From positions 1-6,013 of the IMG/VR virus record IMGVR_UViG_3300045988_003899: DNA of 6,013 nucleotides. One strand, written 5' to 3'. Positions 1 to 6,013 of the stretch are shown piece by piece. The notes below the pieces were generated by a model. It did no database searches. It was given only the letters and a program-made list of their open reading frames with translations, and was not told the origin of the DNA. The number at the start of each line of letters is the position of its first letter. Position 1 is the first letter of the stretch. The stretch is from a virus. A program made the translations under genes and the position numbers.

Positions 1-99
1 TCAGCGGAGCAAGCATGGGACTTGCAAGCAGCAGCGCACTAGGAGTAAGCCGAAGCGGTGGATTTGTACCTAACGCATACGAAAGCAGCAGCTGGAGCA
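1..99. repeat. Terminal redundancy: first copy of a 99-nt sequence identical to 5915-6013 (wrap-around of a circular genome, unit length 5914 nt)
   Basis: Base-by-base comparison of 1-99 with 5915-6013 shows complete identity. The repeat lies inside one continuous reading frame (VP2). Confidence 0.97.
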
Positions 100-1342: not shown

Positions 1343-1353
1343 CGGTGTCACCT

Positions 1354-1385
1354 AGCCCAGTACCTATCAAGTAAGGTACTGGGCT
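1354..1385 (+). repeat. Perfect 12-bp inverted repeat (AGCCCAGTACCT / AGGTACTGGGCT) with an 8-nt loop, 12 nt after the VP4 stop
   Basis: The reverse complement of 1354-1365 equals 1374-1385 exactly. It is followed by an A/T-rich stretch (ATAATAGTTTAAAG) but no clean T-run. It is a possible terminator or an ssDNA structural signal. Confidence 0.8.
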
Positions 1386-1429
1386 ATAATAGTTTAAAGA
1401 CTCCATGTATCAGCCTAGTCAGTGAATAA

Positions 1430-1544: not shown

Positions 1545-1717
1545 TTCAACAGTTTCAACACTTTCAACAGGTTTTCAACATAAAAGTGCACAATAAAATC
1601 CGTCATAATGACGAACATTCAACAATTCAACAAATTTTCAACAAAACTTTCAACAGAGTTTTAAAGCAATAAATTAAGTAACAACGTTAAAATTTAACAC
1701 TATTCAACAATTCAACA
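1545..1717 (+). repeat. Iteron-like array: 10 direct copies of TTCAACA in three clusters (4 + 4 + 2)
   Basis: Exact copies start at 1545, 1554, 1563, 1574 | 1618, 1626, 1637, 1649 | 1703, 1711. All are in the same orientation, with intra-cluster spacing of 8-12 nt. The 16-mer ATTCAACAATTCAACA occurs twice (1617-1632 and 1702-1717). Confidence 0.9.
1601..1613. repeat. 13-bp perfect palindrome CGTCAT-A-ATGACG between iteron clusters 1 and 2
   Basis: The reverse complement of 1601-1606 equals 1608-1613. It could be an operator-like dimer site or a small hairpin. Confidence 0.5.
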
Positions 1718-1897: not shown

Positions 1898-1926
1898 TTG
1901 ACTTTTTTCTAAAAAAATGATAAAAT
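1898..1926 (+). promoter_or_regulatory. Near-consensus sigma70/sigmaA promoter: -35 TTGACT (1898-1903), 17-nt spacer, extended -10 TGaTAAAAT (1918-1926), A/T-rich UP-like tract upstream (about 1866-1897)
   Basis: The hexamers and spacing were read directly. The promoter lies about 28 nt upstream of the first cassette gene, whose SD is AGGAAGG at 1939-1945. It is the only convincing promoter found in the genome. Confidence 0.7.
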
Positions 1927-1953
1927 ATAATTACAGAAAGGAAGGTGCTAAAA

Positions 1954-2151
1954 ATGAAACACACCTACGAACTTAGAAGATTCAACGATGACGACAGTAT
2001 AACAACAGTCCTTAAACTTGAAGCAGAACCAAAATATGCAAAAGAAAGAGCAAAAGACTACGCGAACCGACACCCAGGTCTCTACTCACTACAAAAAATT
2101 GACACCATAGCAATGTATTTTACAGAAAAGGAGCTTGACAAAGATGATTAA
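1954..2151 (+). CDS. Hypothetical protein, 65 aa (first gene after the promoter; no recognisable motif)
   Basis: ATG at 1954 lies 8 nt after SD AGGAAGG (1939-1945). The ORF-track start at 1945 is a GTG inside the SD, so it is disfavoured. The product is acidic and helical-looking, with no TM segment. The ORF overlaps the next gene by 8 nt. Confidence 0.6.
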   Translation: MKHTYELRRFNDDDSITTVLKLEAEPKYAKERAKDYANRHPGLYSLQKIDTIAMYFTEKELDKDD

Positions 2152-2533
2152 ATGCTATATCATGGATACAGATGCAAACGAAAAAGTAGGTCAACACTTT
2201 AAAGTGCGAGAATTTGCATGCAAAGATGGCTCGCAAGTCGTGTTCATCGACAGCTATTTAGTATCCATTCTGGATATCCTCAGAAACCAAGTCGGAAAGC
2301 CGGTATACATAAACAGCGGATACAGGACACCGACAAGGAATAAAATGGTAGGCGGTGCAAAATACTCATACCACATGCGAGGAATGGCAGCAGATATCCG
2401 GGTTGAAGGAATGACCGCAAAAGAAATTGCCAACAAACTGAATAAAATCATTCCGCTTGGCTGCGGCATCATCGTATACAGCAATTGGGTACACATTGAC
2501 ACGCGTACCAAAGCCTACAGAAAGGGGGTATAA
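2144..2533 (+). CDS. Zinc D-Ala-D-Ala carboxypeptidase-type cell-wall peptidase, M15 family (Peptidase_M15_3 / M15A-like), putative endolysin, 129 aa
   Basis: Family motifs were read by eye: FKVREFACKDGS, SGYRTPTRNKMVGGAKYSYHMRGMAADI and WVHID. These give the H-x6-D...H-x-D zinc triad (H77 at nt 2372-2374, D84, H117). ATG at 2144 lies 10 nt after SD AAGGAG (2128-2133). The ORF-track start at 2135 is TTG. No signal peptide or TM segment is present. Confidence 0.85.
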   Translation: MIKCYIMDTDANEKVGQHFKVREFACKDGSQVVFIDSYLVSILDILRNQVGKPVYINSGYRTPTRNKMVGGAKYSYHMRGMAADIRVEGMTAKEIANKLNKIIPLGCGIIVYSNWVHIDTRTKAYRKGV

Positions 2534-2534
2534 A

Positions 2535-2657
2535 ATGGCACTTATTTCCATTAAGGACGTCAAGCAGGCAATCCGTCTCATGATGCAGATTTTGGAAAAG
2601 CTTGACGAAATCTATCATGCGCTGCATGACAGCATCAACGAAAAAGAAAAGGAGTAA
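2535..2657 (+). CDS. Hypothetical small protein, 40 aa, predicted amphipathic helix
   Basis: ATG at 2535 lies 6 nt after the G-rich SD AAGGGGG (2522-2528) and 1 nt after the peptidase stop. The ORF-track start at 2457 is a TTG inside the peptidase gene with no SD. Sequence: MALISIKDVKQAIRLMMQILEKLDEIYHALHDSINEKEKE. Confidence 0.5.
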   Translation: MALISIKDVKQAIRLMMQILEKLDEIYHALHDSINEKEKE

Positions 2658-2660
2658 ATA

Positions 2661-2885
2661 ATGATTCACAAGACGTGGAACGTAAGAGACCAGACCAAAG
2701 AAGTACTTGAAGAGCTGCTAAACCGAAAATACAAGGAAATCGATGGAAGCTATAAGATGCTACGCAAAGTATCCAACATCGAGAACGCAAAAAAGCTAGT
2801 GGACGAAATATGGCAAATGAAAAGTTTTACGAATGCAATTGAAATGGAACTCATGAGAAGGGAGTGTAACGATGGCGTATCGTAA
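2661..2885 (+). CDS. Hypothetical protein, 74 aa (helical, charged; no recognisable motif)
   Basis: ATG at 2661 lies 6 nt after SD AAGGAG (2649-2654) and 3 nt after the previous stop. Confidence 0.6.
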   Translation: MIHKTWNVRDQTKEVLEELLNRKYKEIDGSYKMLRKVSNIENAKKLVDEIWQMKSFTNAIEMELMRRECNDGVS

Positions 2886-2991
2886 AAAGATGAAGAGAAG
2901 CAAAGACGCGAGGATCTTCAACGTAACGGCAAGAAAAACGAAAAATATCAACCTAAGCCAGAAACCCATGCGGGGCGGCATCCGACTGTAA
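2872..2991 (+). CDS. VP8: Small highly basic DNA-binding / packaging peptide (gokushovirus ORF8/VP8-like, functional analogue of phiX174 J), 39 aa; not in the supplied ORF track
   Basis: Hand translation gives MAYRKKMKRSKDARIFNVTARKTKNINLSQKPMRGGIRL. It is Arg/Lys-rich and ends in MRGGIRL, as I recall for the Chlamydia-phage ORF8 C-terminus (MRGGIRF). SD AAGGGAG (2858-2864) lies 7 nt upstream. The ORF overlaps the previous one by 14 nt. Confidence 0.75.
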   Translation: MAYRKKMKRSKDARIFNVTARKTKNINLSQKPMRGGIRL

Positions 2992-3006: not shown

Positions 3007-3246
3007 ATGGAACATCTGTATTTTGGCATTTGGGACAACGTGGCAAAATGCTACGCATGGGTAGGCGAAAGCAAAAACAATGCAACGTTTGCACGCATGT
3101 GCAACACAATGGCAAAGGACGAAAAAACCTTCATTGGACAGGCGCCGGGTGATTACATCGGCTACCGGTTAGCAGAATTTAACGATGAAACCGGCGAATT
3201 TAACAACGACAAGGAAAAAGTATGGGAGGGTAAGCCGAATGAATAA
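3007..3246 (+). CDS. VP5: Gokushovirus VP5/ORF5-like non-structural protein, 79 aa
   Basis: SD AAGGAG (2994-2999) lies 7 nt upstream. The pattern FGIWDNVAKCY...NNATFARMC...PGDYIGYRLAEFNDETGEF matches the conserved ORF5 layout as remembered (F.V.D.K...Y...N.A.A.R.F...PEDY.L..IG.FD..TG). Confidence 0.7.
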   Translation: MEHLYFGIWDNVAKCYAWVGESKNNATFARMCNTMAKDEKTFIGQAPGDYIGYRLAEFNDETGEFNNDKEKVWEGKPNE

Positions 3247-3646
3247 ACGATACGAGGAAGGGCGAAAGCCCTTCTTTTCGAATTCGGGTGAAAAACTACG
3301 GAAACAATACGTATGGACAAAGGACGAAAAAGGAAAAGAAGTGCTGCAGGAAACCGAACCAATCGACATCCAGCAGGAAATCGAAAGCTATTCGGATGAA
3401 TGTGACATTAAAAACATTGTCCGGAAGGCAAGTTTCGACCCGGAATTCCTGAAAAGCCTGTCAAAAGGAGCACTGAGCCAAGAAGAAACGCCGATCTTAG
3501 ACATAACAGAATGGCCGCAAAACATCCACGAGTATCATCAGATGATCGCGACCGCACAAGTAAACGCAATGATGCTCAAAGATCTGGAAGTGCAAAGCAA
3601 AGCACAGAAAGAAGAATCAGCGGAAGGGAGTAAAACGGCAGAATGA
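3239..3646 (+). CDS. VP3: Internal scaffolding protein VP3, 135 aa
   Basis: ATG at 3239 lies 8 nt after SD GGGAGGG (3224-3230) and overlaps the VP5-like stop (ATGAATAA). The upstream ATG at 3185 given in the ORF track has no SD. The motif SYSDECDIKNIVRK resembles the gokushovirus scaffold signature (..F.DECDIN.I..). The tail is acidic. The stop overlaps the VP1 start (ATGA). Confidence 0.8.
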   Translation: MNKRYEEGRKPFFSNSGEKLRKQYVWTKDEKGKEVLQETEPIDIQQEIESYSDECDIKNIVRKASFDPEFLKSLSKGALSQEETPILDITEWPQNIHEYHQMIATAQVNAMMLKDLEVQSKAQKEESAEGSKTAE

Positions 3647-5343
3647 ACAGAAACAACGAAAGACACTTCTTACAAGTACCACAAATGCACACAAGCCGAA
3701 CACGGTTCAACCGTGACCAGACAAACCTAACCACATTCAACAGCGGCAGGCTAATTCCATTCTTTGTGGACGAAGTTTTGCCGGGAGACACCTTCCAGAT
3801 AGACACGAGCGCAATCATCCGCATGACAACACCAAAATTCCCGGTGATGGATGACGCATTCATCGACTTCTACTACTTCTATTGTCCAAACCGTATCCTG
3901 TGGGACAACTTCAAACAGTTCATGGGAGAAGTGGACAATACGCCATGGATGCCAACAAGAACATATCAAGTGCCAGAAATCGAAATCAACGGAACTGAAG
4001 CAAGCGGAAGACCGCTTAATGGCAGCATCCTAGACTACATGGGTGTGCCAACAAACGTAAAAGCACGGTTCAAAATAAACGCGTTGCCAGTCCGTGCATA
4101 CGTTATGATCTGGAACGAGTATTTCAGAGACCAAAACATTGAAAACGCAGCAAAATGGAAAAGCGACGACGGTAACGTACAATACACACAATCATACAAC
4201 GACGGTTCCGGAGCAAAAGACGAAATTGAAAAAACGCTTCAAGAAGCAATCACCGGAGGACTGTGTCTTCCCGTTAACCGTTTCCACGACTACTTCTCAA
4301 GCTGCTTGCCTTATCCGCAGCGTGGGCCGGAAGTAACCGTGCCAATGACAGGTAATGCGCCAGTAAGACTAGGAGACGCCTCCGGCAGATATGTAGATTA
4401 CGCTGGACCAGTAGAAATGGTGCTAAGTAGAAATGCCAATCAAAACGTACCGGGAAGTCTAGGATACGAGAACGCAACAGGAAAACCCAACGAAAAAAAG
4501 CAAATGCAATTCACTGGAGTTGAAAAAGCATCAGGTGAATCAGGAACGGGGGGCTGGATGTACACAGACCTAAGTTCTGTAGGAGCAACAACCATCAACG
4601 AACTGAGAAACGCAATTGCAGTGCAGCAGTACTATGAAGCAATGGCAAGAGGCGGCAGCCGATACCGTGAACAGGTACAGGCACTGTGGGACGTAACCAT
4701 CAGCGACAAAACGGCACAGATTCCGGAATATCTCGGCGGAGGACGCTATCACGTCAACATGAACCAAATCGTGCAGACAAGCGGACAGCAGAGCGAAAAC
4801 GATACACCAATTGGTGAAACCGGAGCAATGTCCGTAACGCCTATCAACGAAAGTTCCTTCACAAAGAGTTTTGAGGAACACGGGTTTGTAATCGGTGTGT
4901 TGTGCGTACGCCATAACAGAACGTACCAGCAGGGGCTTGAACGTTTCTGGAGTAGAAAGGACAGACTGGACTATTACGTGCCTCAGTTTGCAAACATTGG
5001 CGAACAGCCTGTAAAGAAAAAAGAAATCATGCTAACCGGTACGGCAACTGATGAAGAGACATTCGGCTACCAGGAGGCCTGGGCTGATTACCGAATGAAG
5101 CCAAACCGTGTAAGCGGCCTCATGCGAAGCAACGCAACAGGCACGTTGGACTTTTGGCACTACGCAGACAATTATTCGACCGTACCAACACTGTCTCAGG
5201 AATGGATGGCAGAAGGCAAAAGCGAAATTGCAAGAACACTCATCGTACAGAACGAACCGCAATTCTTTGGTGCAATCCGCGTAGCAAACAAAACCACACG
5301 TTGCATGCCGCTGTACAGTGTACCGGGCTTGTACAAACTATAA
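3643..5343 (+). CDS. VP1: Major capsid protein VP1 (Microviridae F-protein family), 566 aa
   Basis: N-terminal signature SRTRFNRDQTNLTTFNSGRLIPFFVDEVLPGDTF, then TPKFPVMDDAFIDFYYFYCPNRILWDNFKQFMGE. Further on, INELRNAIAVQQYYEAMARGGSRYRE. All are classic microvirus capsid motifs. Confidence 0.97.
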   Translation: MNRNNERHFLQVPQMHTSRTRFNRDQTNLTTFNSGRLIPFFVDEVLPGDTFQIDTSAIIRMTTPKFPVMDDAFIDFYYFYCPNRILWDNFKQFMGEVDNTPWMPTRTYQVPEIEINGTEASGRPLNGSILDYMGVPTNVKARFKINALPVRAYVMIWNEYFRDQNIENAAKWKSDDGNVQYTQSYNDGSGAKDEIEKTLQEAITGGLCLPVNRFHDYFSSCLPYPQRGPEVTVPMTGNAPVRLGDASGRYVDYAGPVEMVLSRNANQNVPGSLGYENATGKPNEKKQMQFTGVEKASGESGTGGWMYTDLSSVGATTINELRNAIAVQQYYEAMARGGSRYREQVQALWDVTISDKTAQIPEYLGGGRYHVNMNQIVQTSGQQSENDTPIGETGAMSVTPINESSFTKSFEEHGFVIGVLCVRHNRTYQQGLERFWSRKDRLDYYVPQFANIGEQPVKKKEIMLTGTATDEETFGYQEAWADYRMKPNRVSGLMRSNATGTLDFWHYADNYSTVPTLSQEWMAEGKSEIARTLIVQNEPQFFGAIRVANKTTRCMPLYSVPGLYKL

Positions 5344-5382: not shown

Positions 5383-6013
5383 ATGTCAGGATTATCAGGA
5401 TTCTTAACAGCACTAAACGTAGCAGGAAACGTAGCAAACACAATCGGAACTTTTGCAGGAGCAGCTAAAAACGTAGCCGGAGCGTTTGGCGGATGGGGAC
5501 AAACAGGCAATAGCCAAAGTAGCGGCGGCAGCACAAGCCAAGGCGGTGGACACTCCGAAAGCGGAAGTCAATCAGGAACTAACGTACAACAGGTCAACGA
5601 CTGGCTCAAGCAGGCATACGCATACCAAGGGCAAGAAGCAGCCATGCAGGGCAAATACAACAGCCAAAGCATGCTTAAACAGATGGGCTATAACACCTTA
5701 CAAGCAATCATGCAAGGCGTATACAACCACATCGAAAACAGTGTAGCAATGAACTACAACAGCTCAGAAGCACTAGCAAACAGAAACTGGCAAGAACACA
5801 TGTCAAGCACAGCATACCAAAGAGCAGTTGAGGACATGAAAAAAGCGGGGCTTAACCCAATCCTAGCATTCTCAAACGGTGGAGCAAGCACACCGGGCGG
5901 AAGCGCAGGAACGATCAGCGGAGCAAGCATGGGACTTGCAAGCAGCAGCGCACTAGGAGTAAGCCGAAGCGGTGGATTTGTACCTAACGCATACGAAAGC
6001 AGCAGCTGGAGCA
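5383..6013 (+). CDS. VP2: Minor capsid / DNA pilot protein VP2, N-terminal part (runs off the window; continues at position 100 after removing the 99-nt redundancy)
   Basis: ATG at 5383 is immediately preceded by an in-frame TAA. Hand translation gives MSGLSGFLTALNVAGNVANTIGTFAGAAKNVAGAFGGWG (hydrophobic, Gly-rich N-terminus) and a Gly/Ser/Gln linker. It then contains the conserved pilot-protein core NWQEHMSSTAYQRAVEDMKKAGLNPILAFS. The frame is open to the window end. Confidence 0.9.
   Translation, partial: MSGLSGFLTALNVAGNVANTIGTFAGAAKNVAGAFGGWGQTGNSQSSGGSTSQGGGHSESGSQSGTNVQQVNDWLKQAYAYQGQEAAMQGKYNSQSMLKQMGYNTLQAIMQGVYNHIENSVAMNYNSSEALANRNWQEHMSSTAYQRAVEDMKKAGLNPILAFSNGGASTPGGSAGTISGASMGLASSSALGVSRSGGFVPNAYESSSWS
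5915..6013. repeat. Terminal redundancy: second copy of the 99-nt sequence found at 1-99
   Basis: Identical to 1-99. Confidence 0.97.

What the first reader, a model, noticed from the sequence alone, without database searches (positions are those of the whole stretch)
2144..2533. M15 zinc peptidase (endolysin-type) encoded by a microvirus, with no visible holin or export signal
The 129-aa product carries the M15 signature read directly from the translation (FKVREFACKDG, SGYRTPxRNxxVGGAxxSYHxxGxAADI, VHID; zinc triad H77/D84/H117). The well-studied microviruses lyse without a muralytic enzyme: phiX174 E blocks MraY. No lysis gene is characterised for gokushoviruses. As far as I recall, M15-type ORFs have only been noted sporadically in metagenomic microvirus genomes and never characterised. 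I cannot verify that here. No ORF in this genome has a TM helix apart from the hydrophobic VP2 N-terminus, and the peptidase has no signal peptide. How it reaches the murein is therefore open. It could act in lysis, or conceivably at entry.
Basis: partly seen in the sequence, partly recalled or inferred. Interest (0 to 1): 0.75.

Follow-up and report, generated by a model that had tools for sequence, protein, structure and literature searches.

The report
Known endolysin-type peptidase in gut microvirus
A small gut ssDNA phage carries a real, well-conserved cell-wall-cutting zinc peptidase taken from larger phages but no membrane-hole protein; this was first reported in 2012, and how the enzyme reaches the wall is still untested.

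Summary
Window 2144-2533 (+) encodes a 129-aa single-domain Peptidase_M15_3 / MEROPS M15A enzyme (Pfam E 6.5e-23; PHROG "endolysin" E 7.8e-42). The zinc-site motifs are intact (R61, S75-x-H77-xx-G-x-A-x-D84, W115-x-H117, D119). The AlphaFold model (pLDDT 95) matches the LAS fold, with 1LBU as best PDB hit. The gene is under strong purifying selection (dN/dS about 0.11). It fills the same slot in every complete close relative examined.

The window is a circular 5,914-nt gokushovirus. Neither it nor about 135 related genomes has a conserved transmembrane ORF, and the enzyme has no signal or SAR sequence. Its 40-50% identical homologues in Clostridia prophages lie beside TM proteins; three of the ten scanned are Pfam Phage_holin_4_1 holins. 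The "endolysin without holin" puzzle is therefore real.

It is not new. Roux et al. 2012 reported M15_3 peptidases in human-gut Gokushovirinae, their horizontal origin and a proposed endolysin role. GenBank relatives are annotated "peptidase M15". I found no experimental work on any microvirus copy.

Most likely it is the phage's lysis enzyme, with an unidentified holin-independent route to the wall. Entry, or cytoplasmic attack on murein precursors, remain possible.

Seen in passing: an unannotated, highly conserved 40-aa gene and a TTCAACA repeat cluster.

The parts
2144..2533 (+). Peptidase gene (129 aa): single-domain Peptidase_M15_3 / M15A zinc peptidase, endolysin type
   Evidence: Pfam E 6.5e-23 and PHROG 894 endolysin E 7.8e-42. 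AF2 pLDDT 95.3. Foldseek best PDB hit 1LBU, prob 1.00. TM 0.92-0.96 to phage peptidases in BFVD. dN/dS about 0.11 at dS about 1.
2366..2395 (+). Codons S75-D84 (SYHMRGMAAD): the SxHxxGxAxD zinc-hydrolase motif, with ligands H77 (2372-2374) and D84 (2393-2395)
   Evidence: Read directly from the sequence. Invariant in alignments A1 and A3. Aligned to H154 and D161 of 1LBU. Motif as defined for the characterised M15A endolysin LysPM1 (PMC13461873).
2486..2500 (+). Codons W115-D119 (WVHID): (W/F)xH motif with third zinc ligand H117 (2492-2494) and conserved acidic D119
   Evidence: H117 and D119 are invariant in A1 and A3, and nearly invariant (at least 90%) in the more diverse A2. Equivalent residues are discussed for LysPM1 (F102-x-H104, D106).
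2324..2326 (+). Codon R61 (in SGYRTP): predicted substrate-carboxylate-binding arginine
   Evidence: Invariant. Aligns with R138 of 1LBU. Role of R138 as stated in PMC13461873.
2127..2133 (+). Shine-Dalgarno-like AAAGGAG, 10 nt upstream of the ATG
   Evidence: Read from the sequence.
1898..1926 (+). Promoter-like site TTGACT-17-TAAAAT with a TG extension, upstream of ORF68 and the peptidase
   Evidence: Consensus scan, 10 of 12 matches. This is a consensus match only, not evidence of function.
1945..2151 (+). ORF68: accessory 68-aa ORF overlapping the peptidase start by 8 nt; soluble, no family hit
   Evidence: Present in only 15 of 82 peptidase-bearing genomes. No Pfam or PHROG hit. No hydrophobic segment.
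2535..2657 (+). ORF40: highly conserved 40-aa amphipathic, heptad-patterned helical protein starting 1 nt after the peptidase stop. It is a clade-wide core small gene, not peptidase-specific.
   Evidence: Found in 81 of 82 genomes and in 5 peptidase-less genomes. Codon-position entropy 0.52/0.30/1.08, a coding signature. Hydrophobic moment 0.70, no TM. Unannotated in 27 of 31 GenBank records with a match.
2661..2885 (+). ORF74: 74-aa soluble helical protein of unknown function in the same VP4-VP5 accessory block
   Evidence: Present in 64 of 82 genomes. In a second lineage its order relative to ORF40 is swapped. No significant family hit.

Best explanation
The gene encodes a functional, free-standing Zn2+-dependent murein peptidase of the M15A / Peptidase_M15_3 family (LAS fold). 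This is the same kind of single-domain enzyme that dsDNA phages use as endolysin. It was captured horizontally, most likely from phages or prophages of Clostridia, the predicted hosts of gut gokushoviruses. It came without the holin that accompanies it there, and it is now fixed in a large lineage of gut gokushoviruses.

The most likely mechanism is as follows. The enzyme is made late with the other + strand genes and accumulates in the cytoplasm. It cuts peptide stems or cross-links of the sacculus once the cytoplasmic membrane is breached, which causes or accelerates lysis and virion release.

Shown: enzyme family, fold, intact metal and substrate residues, purifying selection, fixed synteny, absence of any TM, holin or signal sequence.

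Inferred: the role in lysis, and the route across the membrane. That route must be holin-independent. Candidates are the Gly/Ala-rich hydrophobic VP2 N-terminus, the conserved amphipathic ORF40 peptide, or a general collapse of membrane integrity late in infection.
For: Family and active site. A high-confidence model matches LAS enzymes: 1LBU at prob 1.00, then VanXY, VanY, ChiX, LdcB, Ply500 and LysB4. It matches phage peptidases at TM 0.92-0.96.

Homologues at 37-45% identity are the annotated endolysins of cultured phages, including SP6, K1-5, Proteus phages and Faecalibacterium phage FP_Toutatis. Single-domain M15A endolysins have been shown to be muralytic and Zn-dependent (LysPM1, ST79, Spp64; PMC13461873).

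In Clostridia genomes the homologue lies in lysis cassettes after tail-fibre genes. It is next to Phage_holin_4_1 holins (E 1e-24 to 1e-37) or other small TM proteins, sometimes with a second lysin (Amidase_2).

Purifying selection: dN/dS about 0.11 at dS about 1, third-position entropy 0.89 against 0.25 at position 2.

Among the 80 closest VP1 relatives, every complete genome has a peptidase in the slot upstream of ORF40.

CRISPR-based host prediction for gut Gokushoviridae is Clostridiales (PMC10159846). This agrees with the nearest cellular homologues being in Oscillospiraceae, Faecalibacterium and Lachnospiraceae. Roux 2012 reached the same reading.
Against: No membrane-permeabilising partner can be identified. 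There is no conserved TM ORF in any + frame of the window or of about 135 related genomes, and no signal or SAR segment. A cytoplasmic endolysin has no demonstrated way to reach murein.

A sister lineage of gokushoviruses (VP1 46-47% identical, L129-L133) has the same core genes but no peptidase. Cultured gokushoviruses of E. coli, Chlamydia, Bdellovibrio and Spiroplasma lyse or exit without one (PMC7062461). The enzyme is therefore not a universal requirement.

No experiment exists on any microvirus copy.
Confidence: 0.6

Rival explanations
1. Entry enzyme. The peptidase is carried with, or released from, the virion and locally opens the thick wall of a monoderm host so the VP2 pilot protein can deliver the ssDNA. 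It would act like virion-associated peptidoglycan hydrolases of other phages.
For: M15A domains do occur fused to cell-puncturing or tail proteins (gp5 OB-fold proteins, proteins of about 1000 aa) among the structural neighbours. This reading removes the need for a holin. The predicted hosts are Clostridia with thick walls.
Against: It is a free-standing 129-aa ORF, not fused to VP2 or VP1. It lies in the accessory block between VP4 and VP5 rather than among the capsid genes. No minor enzymatic capsid component is known for T=1 microvirus virions (general knowledge). The closest homologues lie in lysis cassettes next to holins, not in tail modules.
Confidence: 0.12
2. Cytoplasmic 'protein antibiotic'. 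The enzyme never leaves the cytoplasm. It trims D-Ala-D-Ala, UDP-MurNAc-pentapeptide or lipid II (VanX, VanY or VanXY-like DD-peptidase activity). This starves transpeptidation, so the growing cell lyses. It would be the enzymatic counterpart of phiX174 E or Qbeta A2 and would need no holin.
For: The type enzyme of the subfamily and best PDB match (1LBU) is a muramoyl-pentapeptide DD-carboxypeptidase. The cytoplasmic VanXY and VanY enzymes are the next structural matches. The carboxylate-binding Arg (R61, equivalent to R138) is invariant. There is no export signal and no holin anywhere in the clade. Small phages typically lyse by blocking murein synthesis (PMC3394797).
Against: The microvirus enzyme shows no clade-specific change in motif residues relative to the 45-52% identical homologues that are holin-linked endolysins. 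Characterised M15A phage enzymes degrade sacculi from outside. Similarity to VanXY and VanY is at fold level only (E 2.5e-3 to 1e-2, TM 0.40-0.45). There is no direct evidence.
Confidence: 0.1
3. Conventional endolysin with an unrecognised non-TM partner. The conserved amphipathic ORF40 peptide, or excess VP2 through its Gly/Ala-rich N-terminus, permeabilises the membrane and so replaces a holin.
For: ORF40 starts 1 nt after the peptidase stop. It is in 81 of 82 peptidase-bearing genomes and is more conserved than VP1 or VP4. Its 18-residue hydrophobic moment is 0.70, above melittin and magainin computed the same way. The VP2 N-terminus is the most hydrophobic non-peptidase segment (KD19 1.05, and 1.73 in L016).
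Against: ORF40 also occurs in peptidase-less genomes, so it is not a dedicated partner. Its perfect a/d heptad pattern and acidic C-terminal half fit a soluble coiled coil equally well. Neither segment reaches a TM threshold.
Confidence: 0.15
4. Passenger or decaying gene, or an assembly chimera with no role in the phage cycle.
For: It was acquired horizontally and is absent from many gokushoviruses.
Against: dN/dS is about 0.11 over dS of about 1, and catalytic residues are invariant. More than 1,500 clusters at 90% identity were found; the 120 best listed lie on contigs from under 1 kb to about 10 kb, many of 5.4-6 kb. The slot is filled in all complete close relatives. The contig is circular with a 99-nt overlap.
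Confidence: 0.02

Closest known systems
M15_3 peptidases of human-gut Gokushovirinae and Alpavirinae (Roux et al. 2012, PLoS One, PMC3394797); GenBank 'peptidase M15' of Human gut gokushovirus KX513868, KX513877 and the MG945xxx records
   Same: This is the same gene in the same kind of virus from the same habitat. It has the PF08291 domain, was horizontally acquired, has its closest cellular relatives in Faecalibacterium and other Clostridia, and was proposed to be an endolysin. A 93% identical protein is in nr as 'peptidase [Microviridae sp.]'.
   Different: Nothing essential differs. New here are the quantification (fixed in the lineage, dN/dS, two allele groups), the clade-wide demonstration that no TM protein exists, and the contrast with holin-linked homologues.
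Characterised single-domain M15A (Peptidase_M15_3) endolysins: LysPM1 of Proteus phage Homer, peptidase M15A of Burkholderia phage ST79, Spp64 of Shewanella phage Spp001 (PMC13461873, PMC5025407)
   Same: They are of similar size (116-130 aa) with a single domain. They share SxHxxGxAxD, (W/F)xH, the conserved Arg and Tyr and the acidic residue after the third ligand, and have 1LBU as best structural match. Identity to Proteus, SP6 and K1-5 phage endolysins is about 37-41%.
   Different: Those enzymes belong to dsDNA tailed phages of diderm hosts, which have holins and spanins. Their muralytic activity and metal dependence were measured. Nothing has been measured for the microvirus enzyme.
Holin plus M15_3 lysis cassettes of Clostridia (pro)phages, e.g. 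Faecalibacterium prausnitzii APC923/61-1 (L105) and Faecalibacterium phage FP_Toutatis endolysin
   Same: Identity is 40-51% over the whole length, and the architecture is the same roughly 130-aa single domain. These are the likely donor pool.
   Different: There the peptidase is immediately flanked by Phage_holin_4_1 or other small TM proteins, and sometimes by an Amidase_2 lysin. The microvirus took the enzyme only.
Zn2+ D-Ala-D-Ala carboxypeptidase of Streptomyces albus G (PDB 1LBU), type enzyme of MEROPS M15A
   Same: It is the best sequence and fold match among solved structures. H154, D161 and R138 align with H77, D84 and R61.
   Different: It is a secreted 213-aa protein with an extra N-terminal domain. 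Its general-base His195 position is occupied here by W115, as in phage M15A endolysins. Fold-search identity is only about 21%.
Single-gene lysis proteins of small phages (phiX174 E blocking MraY; Qbeta A2; M LysM)
   Same: They solve the same biological problem, lysis by a phage too small for a full lysis cassette.
   Different: phiX174 E is a membrane protein that inhibits murein precursor synthesis and has no enzymatic activity on murein (PMC3394797). No ORF with a TM segment exists here, so the microvirus does not use an E-like protein.

Membership tests
Pfam Peptidase_M15_3 (PF08291) / MEROPS M15A | Full-length match to the family HMM above the curated gathering score | tested here: met
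   81.4 bits against a cutoff of 23.2, E 6.5e-23, profile positions 2-108 of 108.
Pfam Peptidase_M15_3 (PF08291) / MEROPS M15A | SxHxxGxAxD motif providing the first two zinc ligands (His, Asp) | tested here: met
   S75-Y-H77-M-R-G80-M-A82-A-D84. Invariant. Aligned to H154 and D161 of 1LBU.
Pfam Peptidase_M15_3 (PF08291) / MEROPS M15A | Third zinc ligand His in a (W/F)xH motif, followed by a conserved acidic residue | tested here: met
   W115-V-H117-I-D119. H117 and D119 are invariant in A1 and A3 and nearly invariant in A2. Motif definition from PMC13461873.
Pfam Peptidase_M15_3 (PF08291) / MEROPS M15A | Conserved Arg that binds the substrate carboxylate (R138 of 1LBU) | tested here: met
   R61 aligns with R138 and is invariant.
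LAS (lysostaphin / DD-carboxypeptidase / hedgehog) fold | Predicted structure superimposes on solved LAS enzymes | tested here: met
   Model pLDDT 95.3. Foldseek gives 1LBU at E 1.6e-4, prob 1.00, followed by VanXY, VanY, hedgehog N-domains, ChiX, LdcB, Ply500 and LysB4. Inter-atomic distances of the triad could not be measured because the coordinates are not exposed.
LAS (lysostaphin / DD-carboxypeptidase / hedgehog) fold | Zinc binding and peptidoglycan-peptide hydrolysis | not testable with these tools
   Needs purified protein. Shown only for homologues (LysPM1, ST79).
Canonical holin-endolysin lysis cassette | A small membrane protein (holin or pinholin) encoded with the endolysin | tested here: not met
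   The window has no ORF or frame with a TM-grade hydrophobic segment. None is conserved in 82 plus 55 related genomes. By contrast, 40 of 43 cellular or dsDNA-phage loci have one within 2 kb, and three of ten adjacent TM proteins scanned are Phage_holin_4_1.
Canonical holin-endolysin lysis cassette | Alternatively, a secretory signal or SAR domain on the endolysin | tested here: not met
   The N-terminus MIKCYIMDTDANEKVGQHFKV is charged. The maximum KD19 of 1.22 lies in an internal core helix. No dedicated signal-peptide predictor was available.
Single-gene lysis (phiX174 E-like) proteins | Small TM protein, often overprinted in another gene, that blocks murein precursor synthesis | tested here: not met
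   No hydrophobic stretch in any + frame. There is no conserved overprinted ORF inside the peptidase: the alternate + frames are interrupted, and the antisense ORF is open in only 28 of 57 genomes.
Virion-associated peptidoglycan hydrolase | Enzyme domain fused to, or packaged as, a structural protein | tested here: inconclusive
   It is not fused to any structural protein (free-standing ORF). Presence in the virion cannot be tested here.

The most novel reading that the evidence does not exclude
The holin-less microvirus peptidase works from inside the cytoplasm as an enzymatic 'protein antibiotic'. As a VanY or VanXY-like DD-peptidase, it would destroy D-Ala-D-Ala-ended murein precursors (UDP-MurNAc-pentapeptide or lipid II). 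Wall synthesis would fail and the growing host would lyse without any membrane lesion. That would be a new class of single-gene lysis for ssDNA phages. A related unexcluded variant is that the conserved, unannotated 40-aa amphipathic ORF40 peptide is the clade's membrane-permeabilising lysis factor.
Probability: 0.1. Interest if true: 0.8.

Novelty: already known. Interest (0 to 1): 0.3.

Why it matters
Gokushoviruses are among the most abundant phages of the human gut. No lysis mechanism has been characterised for them, and they lack the phiX174 lysis gene (PMC7062461). This peptidase is the only recognisable lysis-type gene in a very large gut lineage, and it comes without any membrane-permeabilising partner. 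That makes it a ready experimental handle on the question.

If the enzyme lyses cells alone, it defines a holin-independent or cytoplasm-acting lysis route. If it does not, a hidden permeabilising function must lie in the few remaining small proteins. The donor pool of the gene also supports Clostridia as hosts.

The existence of the gene, its origin and the endolysin hypothesis have been in the literature since 2012. The finding itself therefore adds little beyond a cleaner statement of the puzzle.

Tried and rejected
1. The first AlphaFold run used a shallow alignment of homologues at 84% identity or more. It gave pLDDT 65, and Foldseek returned only meaningless hits. I discarded it and repeated with a 65-sequence diverse alignment, which gave pLDDT 95.

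2. I tested whether ORF40 is a dedicated partner of the peptidase. This was rejected because ORF40 is also present in five peptidase-less gokushoviruses.

3. I looked for a hidden overprinted or antisense gene inside the peptidase. The hydrophobic antisense ORF 2254-2511 is open in only 28 of 57 unique sequences. The alternate + frames are broken, and third-position variability is uniform. This was rejected.

4. I looked for small TM ORFs below the 25-aa limit, or without start codons, in any + frame. None was found.

5. The GTDB genome scan for prophage or binned copies of this microvirus, intended for host assignment, returned 39 loci that are all non-microviral homologues at 51% identity or less. 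It gave no direct host evidence.

6. An Rfam scan of the window found nothing near threshold.

7. I tried to decide between one and several acquisitions from allele clustering. There are two allele groups (111 and 14 genomes), each about 58-59% identical to the other and to the non-microviral set. The comparison set also contains microvirus-sized contigs. The result is inconclusive.

8. The three VP1 relatives 'without peptidase' (L141, L162, L167) are truncated contigs that break in the VP4-ORF40 interval. They are not real absences.
Full report
WHAT IS IN THE WINDOW

The 6,013-nt window is a circularly permuted gokushovirus contig. Bases 1-99 repeat at 5915-6013, so the genome is 5,914 nt. 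All recognisable genes are on the + strand, which has a strong A-over-T skew:
- VP2 pilot protein: 5383-5914 joined to 1-326.
- VP4 replication initiator: 323-1342.
- A 600-nt low-GC intergenic region: 1343-1944.
- ORF68: 1945-2151.
- The peptidase: 2144-2533.
- ORF40: 2535-2657.
- ORF74: 2661-2885.
- A 39-aa very basic ORF: 2872-2991.
- VP5: 3007-3246.
- VP3 scaffold: 3185-3646.
- VP1 capsid: 3643-5343.

These assignments rest. The nearest GenBank genomes are human and pig gut gokushoviruses at 76-85% nucleotide identity over parts of the genome.

CHECK OF THE OBSERVATION

The ORF is as described: ATG 2144 to TAA 2533, 129 aa, with AAAGGAG 10 nt upstream.

It matches Pfam Peptidase_M15_3 end to end (81.4 bits against a cutoff of 23.2, E 6.5e-23). 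It also matches Peptidase_M15_2/DUF882 and PHROG 894 'endolysin' (E 7.8e-42).

The sequence carries the M15A motifs defined for experimentally characterised phage enzymes (PMC13461873): SxHxxGxAxD (S75...D84), (W/F)xH (W115-V-H117), the carboxylate-binding Arg (R61), the conserved Tyr (Y112) and the acidic residue after the third ligand (D119). All of these are invariant in 23 close homologues and in 65 homologues down to about 42% identity. In the more diverse 40-sequence set, Y112, H117 and D119 are nearly invariant (at least 90%) and the others invariant. H77, D84 and R61 align residue for residue with H154, D161 and R138 of the Streptomyces albus Zn DD-peptidase 1LBU.

A first structure model from a shallow alignment was poor, and its fold search was meaningless. 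A second model from a diverse alignment reached pLDDT 95.3. Its best PDB match is 1LBU (prob 1.00). Next come VanXY, VanY, hedgehog N-domains, ChiX, LdcB, Ply500 and LysB4, which together make up the LAS superfamily. In BFVD it superimposes at TM 0.92-0.96 on peptidases of uncultured tailed phages. It also matches 'Peptidase [Microvirus mar50/52/54/59]'.

IS THE GENE REAL AND USED?

More than 1,500 clusters at 90% identity match at E of 1e-5 or better. The best 120 are 84-93% identical and lie on contigs from under 1 kb to about 10 kb, many of them 5.4-6 kb.

Across 57 unique full-length gene copies the median dN/dS is 0.11 at dS of about 1. Third-position variability is high and even along the gene. 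The hydrophobic antisense ORF is open in only half of the copies, and the alternate + frames are interrupted. This is therefore a protein-coding gene under strong purifying selection, with no overprinted gene inside it.

Among the 80 closest VP1 relatives in IMG/VR (VP1 70-81% identical), every complete genome has a peptidase in the same slot upstream of ORF40. The three exceptions are truncated contigs that break in that interval. Allele identity to the window ranges from 43% to 95%, while VP4 stays at 79-94%. The alleles form two groups.

A second gokushovirus lineage, with VP1 only 40-45% and VP4 38% identical, carries peptidases that are 72-89% identical. This repeats the inter-family recombination of a peptidase region reported by Kirchberger et al. 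2022. A third lineage (VP1 46-47%, L129-L133) has no peptidase at all.

THE MISSING HOLIN

No + strand ORF of 25 aa or more in the window reaches a TM-grade hydrophobicity. The maxima are 1.22 in the peptidase core helix and 1.05 at the VP2 N-terminus. A frame-by-frame scan that ignores start codons finds nothing else.

The same scan on 82 peptidase-bearing genomes and 55 further relatives finds no conserved TM ORF. The few hits are one VP2 N-terminus, a few isolated short ORFs in single genomes, and unrelated sequence in oversized, probably chimeric contigs. The enzyme's N-terminus is charged and not hydrophobic.

The non-microviral homologues behave differently. These are 36-52% identical and nearly all from Clostridia MAGs and isolates such as Faecalibacterium prausnitzii, Oscillospiraceae and Lachnospiraceae. 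In 40 of 43 such loci a small same-strand TM ORF lies within 2 kb, and about 25 of these abut the peptidase. Three of the ten I scanned are Pfam Phage_holin_4_1 holins (E 1e-24 to 1e-37). These cassettes follow tail-fibre genes and sometimes include an Amidase_2 lysin. The microvirus therefore carries the enzyme of a holin-endolysin cassette without the holin.

MECHANISM

What is shown: a catalytically intact M15A murein-peptidase fold, selection, fixation, and lack of any export device.

What is inferred: the enzyme's role. The most economical reading (confidence about 0.6) is the one proposed in 2012. The enzyme is the phage's endolysin and digests the host sacculus at release. The host is most likely a member of the Clostridia. 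This fits the CRISPR-based prediction for gut Gokushoviridae (PMC10159846) and the donor pool of the gene.

How the enzyme crosses the membrane is unknown. Peptidase-less relatives and cultured gokushoviruses also get out of their hosts. The core gene set may therefore already damage the envelope, with the peptidase completing or accelerating lysis of a thick wall. Two candidates can be named but not tested:
- The Gly/Ala-rich VP2 N-terminus.
- ORF40, a strongly amphipathic 40-aa peptide (hydrophobic moment 0.70) that starts 1 nt after the peptidase stop. ORF40 is not peptidase-specific, and its heptad pattern fits a soluble coiled coil equally well.

There are two rivals:
- A virion-associated entry role (about 0.12). 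M15A domains are used that way in tailed phages, but here the ORF is free-standing and sits outside the capsid genes.
- Cytoplasmic attack on D-Ala-D-Ala-ended precursors, VanY or VanXY-like (about 0.10). This would explain the absence of a holin and would parallel the 'protein antibiotic' logic of small phages. However, no residue pattern distinguishes the microvirus enzyme from its holin-linked homologues.

COMPARISON WITH WHAT IS KNOWN, AND NOVELTY

Membership in Peptidase_M15_3 / M15A is met on every sequence and fold criterion I could test. Activity is untested. Membership in a canonical holin-endolysin system, or in the phiX174 E-like single-gene lysis class, is not met.

The finding itself is already in the literature. 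Roux et al. 2012 (PMC3394797) reported M15_3 peptidases in 5 human-gut Gokushovirinae and 6 Alpavirinae. They noted that 4 of the 5 gokushoviral enzymes were closest to Faecalibacterium prausnitzii and that the bacterial homologues lie next to holins, and they suggested an endolysin role. Later work treats peptidases as recurrent lysis-associated accessory genes of microviruses, including cultured isolates. GenBank relatives are annotated 'peptidase M15' or 'similar to peptidase'. A 93% identical protein is in nr as 'peptidase [Microviridae sp.]'.

My searches found no experimental characterisation of a microviral copy. I rate novelty as 'already known' and interest at 0.3.

SIDE OBSERVATIONS

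- ORF40 is a real gene. Its codon-position entropy is 0.52/0.30/1.08 and the core ILEKLDEIYHAL is invariant. It is more conserved than the capsid or replication proteins, and it is unannotated in 27 of the 31 GenBank records where it occurs.
- The VP4-peptidase intergenic region holds ten same-strand TTCAACA copies within 173 nt, against 1.1 expected in the whole window. They lie in a block conserved across 121 related genomes, in some of them in inverted orientation. Two perfect 13-nt hairpins lie just after VP4.
- Neither feature was pursued to a function.

Noticed in passing
window 2535-2657 (+): ORF40 (MALISIKDVKQAIRLMMQILEKLDEIYHALHDSINEKEKE) is a real, very highly conserved small gene. 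Its codon-position entropy is 0.52/0.30/1.08 and its core ILEKLDEIYHAL is invariant. It occurs in 81 of 82 peptidase-bearing genomes and in peptidase-less gokushoviruses with only 46% VP1 identity. It is unannotated in 27 of 31 GenBank records. It is amphipathic with a heptad pattern, has no TM segment and matches no Pfam or PHROG family.
   Followed up: partly
window 1545-1717 (+), within conserved block ~1520-1850: Ten same-strand copies of TTCAACA lie within 173 nt, against 1.1 expected in the whole window. They sit in an intergenic block with about 0.9 column identity that gives blastn hits in 121 related genomes, in some of them in inverted orientation. This is an iteron-like array of unknown function, possibly an origin or a regulatory protein-binding site.
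   Followed up: partly
window 1353-1386 and 1430-1457: Two perfect 13-nt inverted repeats (loops of 8 and 2 nt) lie immediately downstream of the VP4 stop. GC-rich imperfect palindromes lie at 1491-1536.
   Followed up: no
window 2872-2991 (+): A 39-aa extremely basic ORF (MAYRKKMKRSKDARIFNVTARKTKNINLSQKPMRGGIRL) is present in 82 of 82 related genomes. It is probably the J/VP8-like DNA-condensing protein. It overlaps the end of ORF74.
   Followed up: partly
window 1-99 and 5915-6013: A 99-nt exact terminal direct repeat is an assembly overlap of a circular genome. The true length is 5,914 nt, and VP2 (285 aa) spans the junction (5383-5914 plus 1-326).
   Followed up: yes
L134-L180 and L001-L082, slot between VP4 and ORF40: The peptidase slot behaves as an exchange hotspot. 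Allele identity to the window ranges from 43% to 95% in genomes whose VP4 is 79-94% identical. A lineage with 40% VP1 identity carries peptidases that are 72-89% identical. Two allele groups (111 and 14 genomes) are each about 58% identical to the other and to non-microviral homologues.
   Followed up: partly
window 1945-2151 (+): ORF68 overlaps the peptidase start by 8 nt (ATGATTAA). It occurs in only about one fifth of related genomes, always directly upstream of the peptidase. It has no family hit and no TM segment.
   Followed up: partly
L084-L086 (dsDNA phage contigs), 5658-7824: Homologous M15_3 peptidases in gut tailed-phage contigs lie in cassettes with two flanking small TM proteins, a DUF7338 protein and a second lysin (Amidase_2), directly after tail-fibre genes. 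These phages therefore carry two different lysins.
   Followed up: no
BFVD structural neighbours of the model: The same M15A fold occurs fused to gp5-type OB-fold cell-puncturing proteins and to proteins of about 1000 aa in uncultured tailed phages. The domain is therefore also used as a virion-associated entry enzyme.
   Followed up: no
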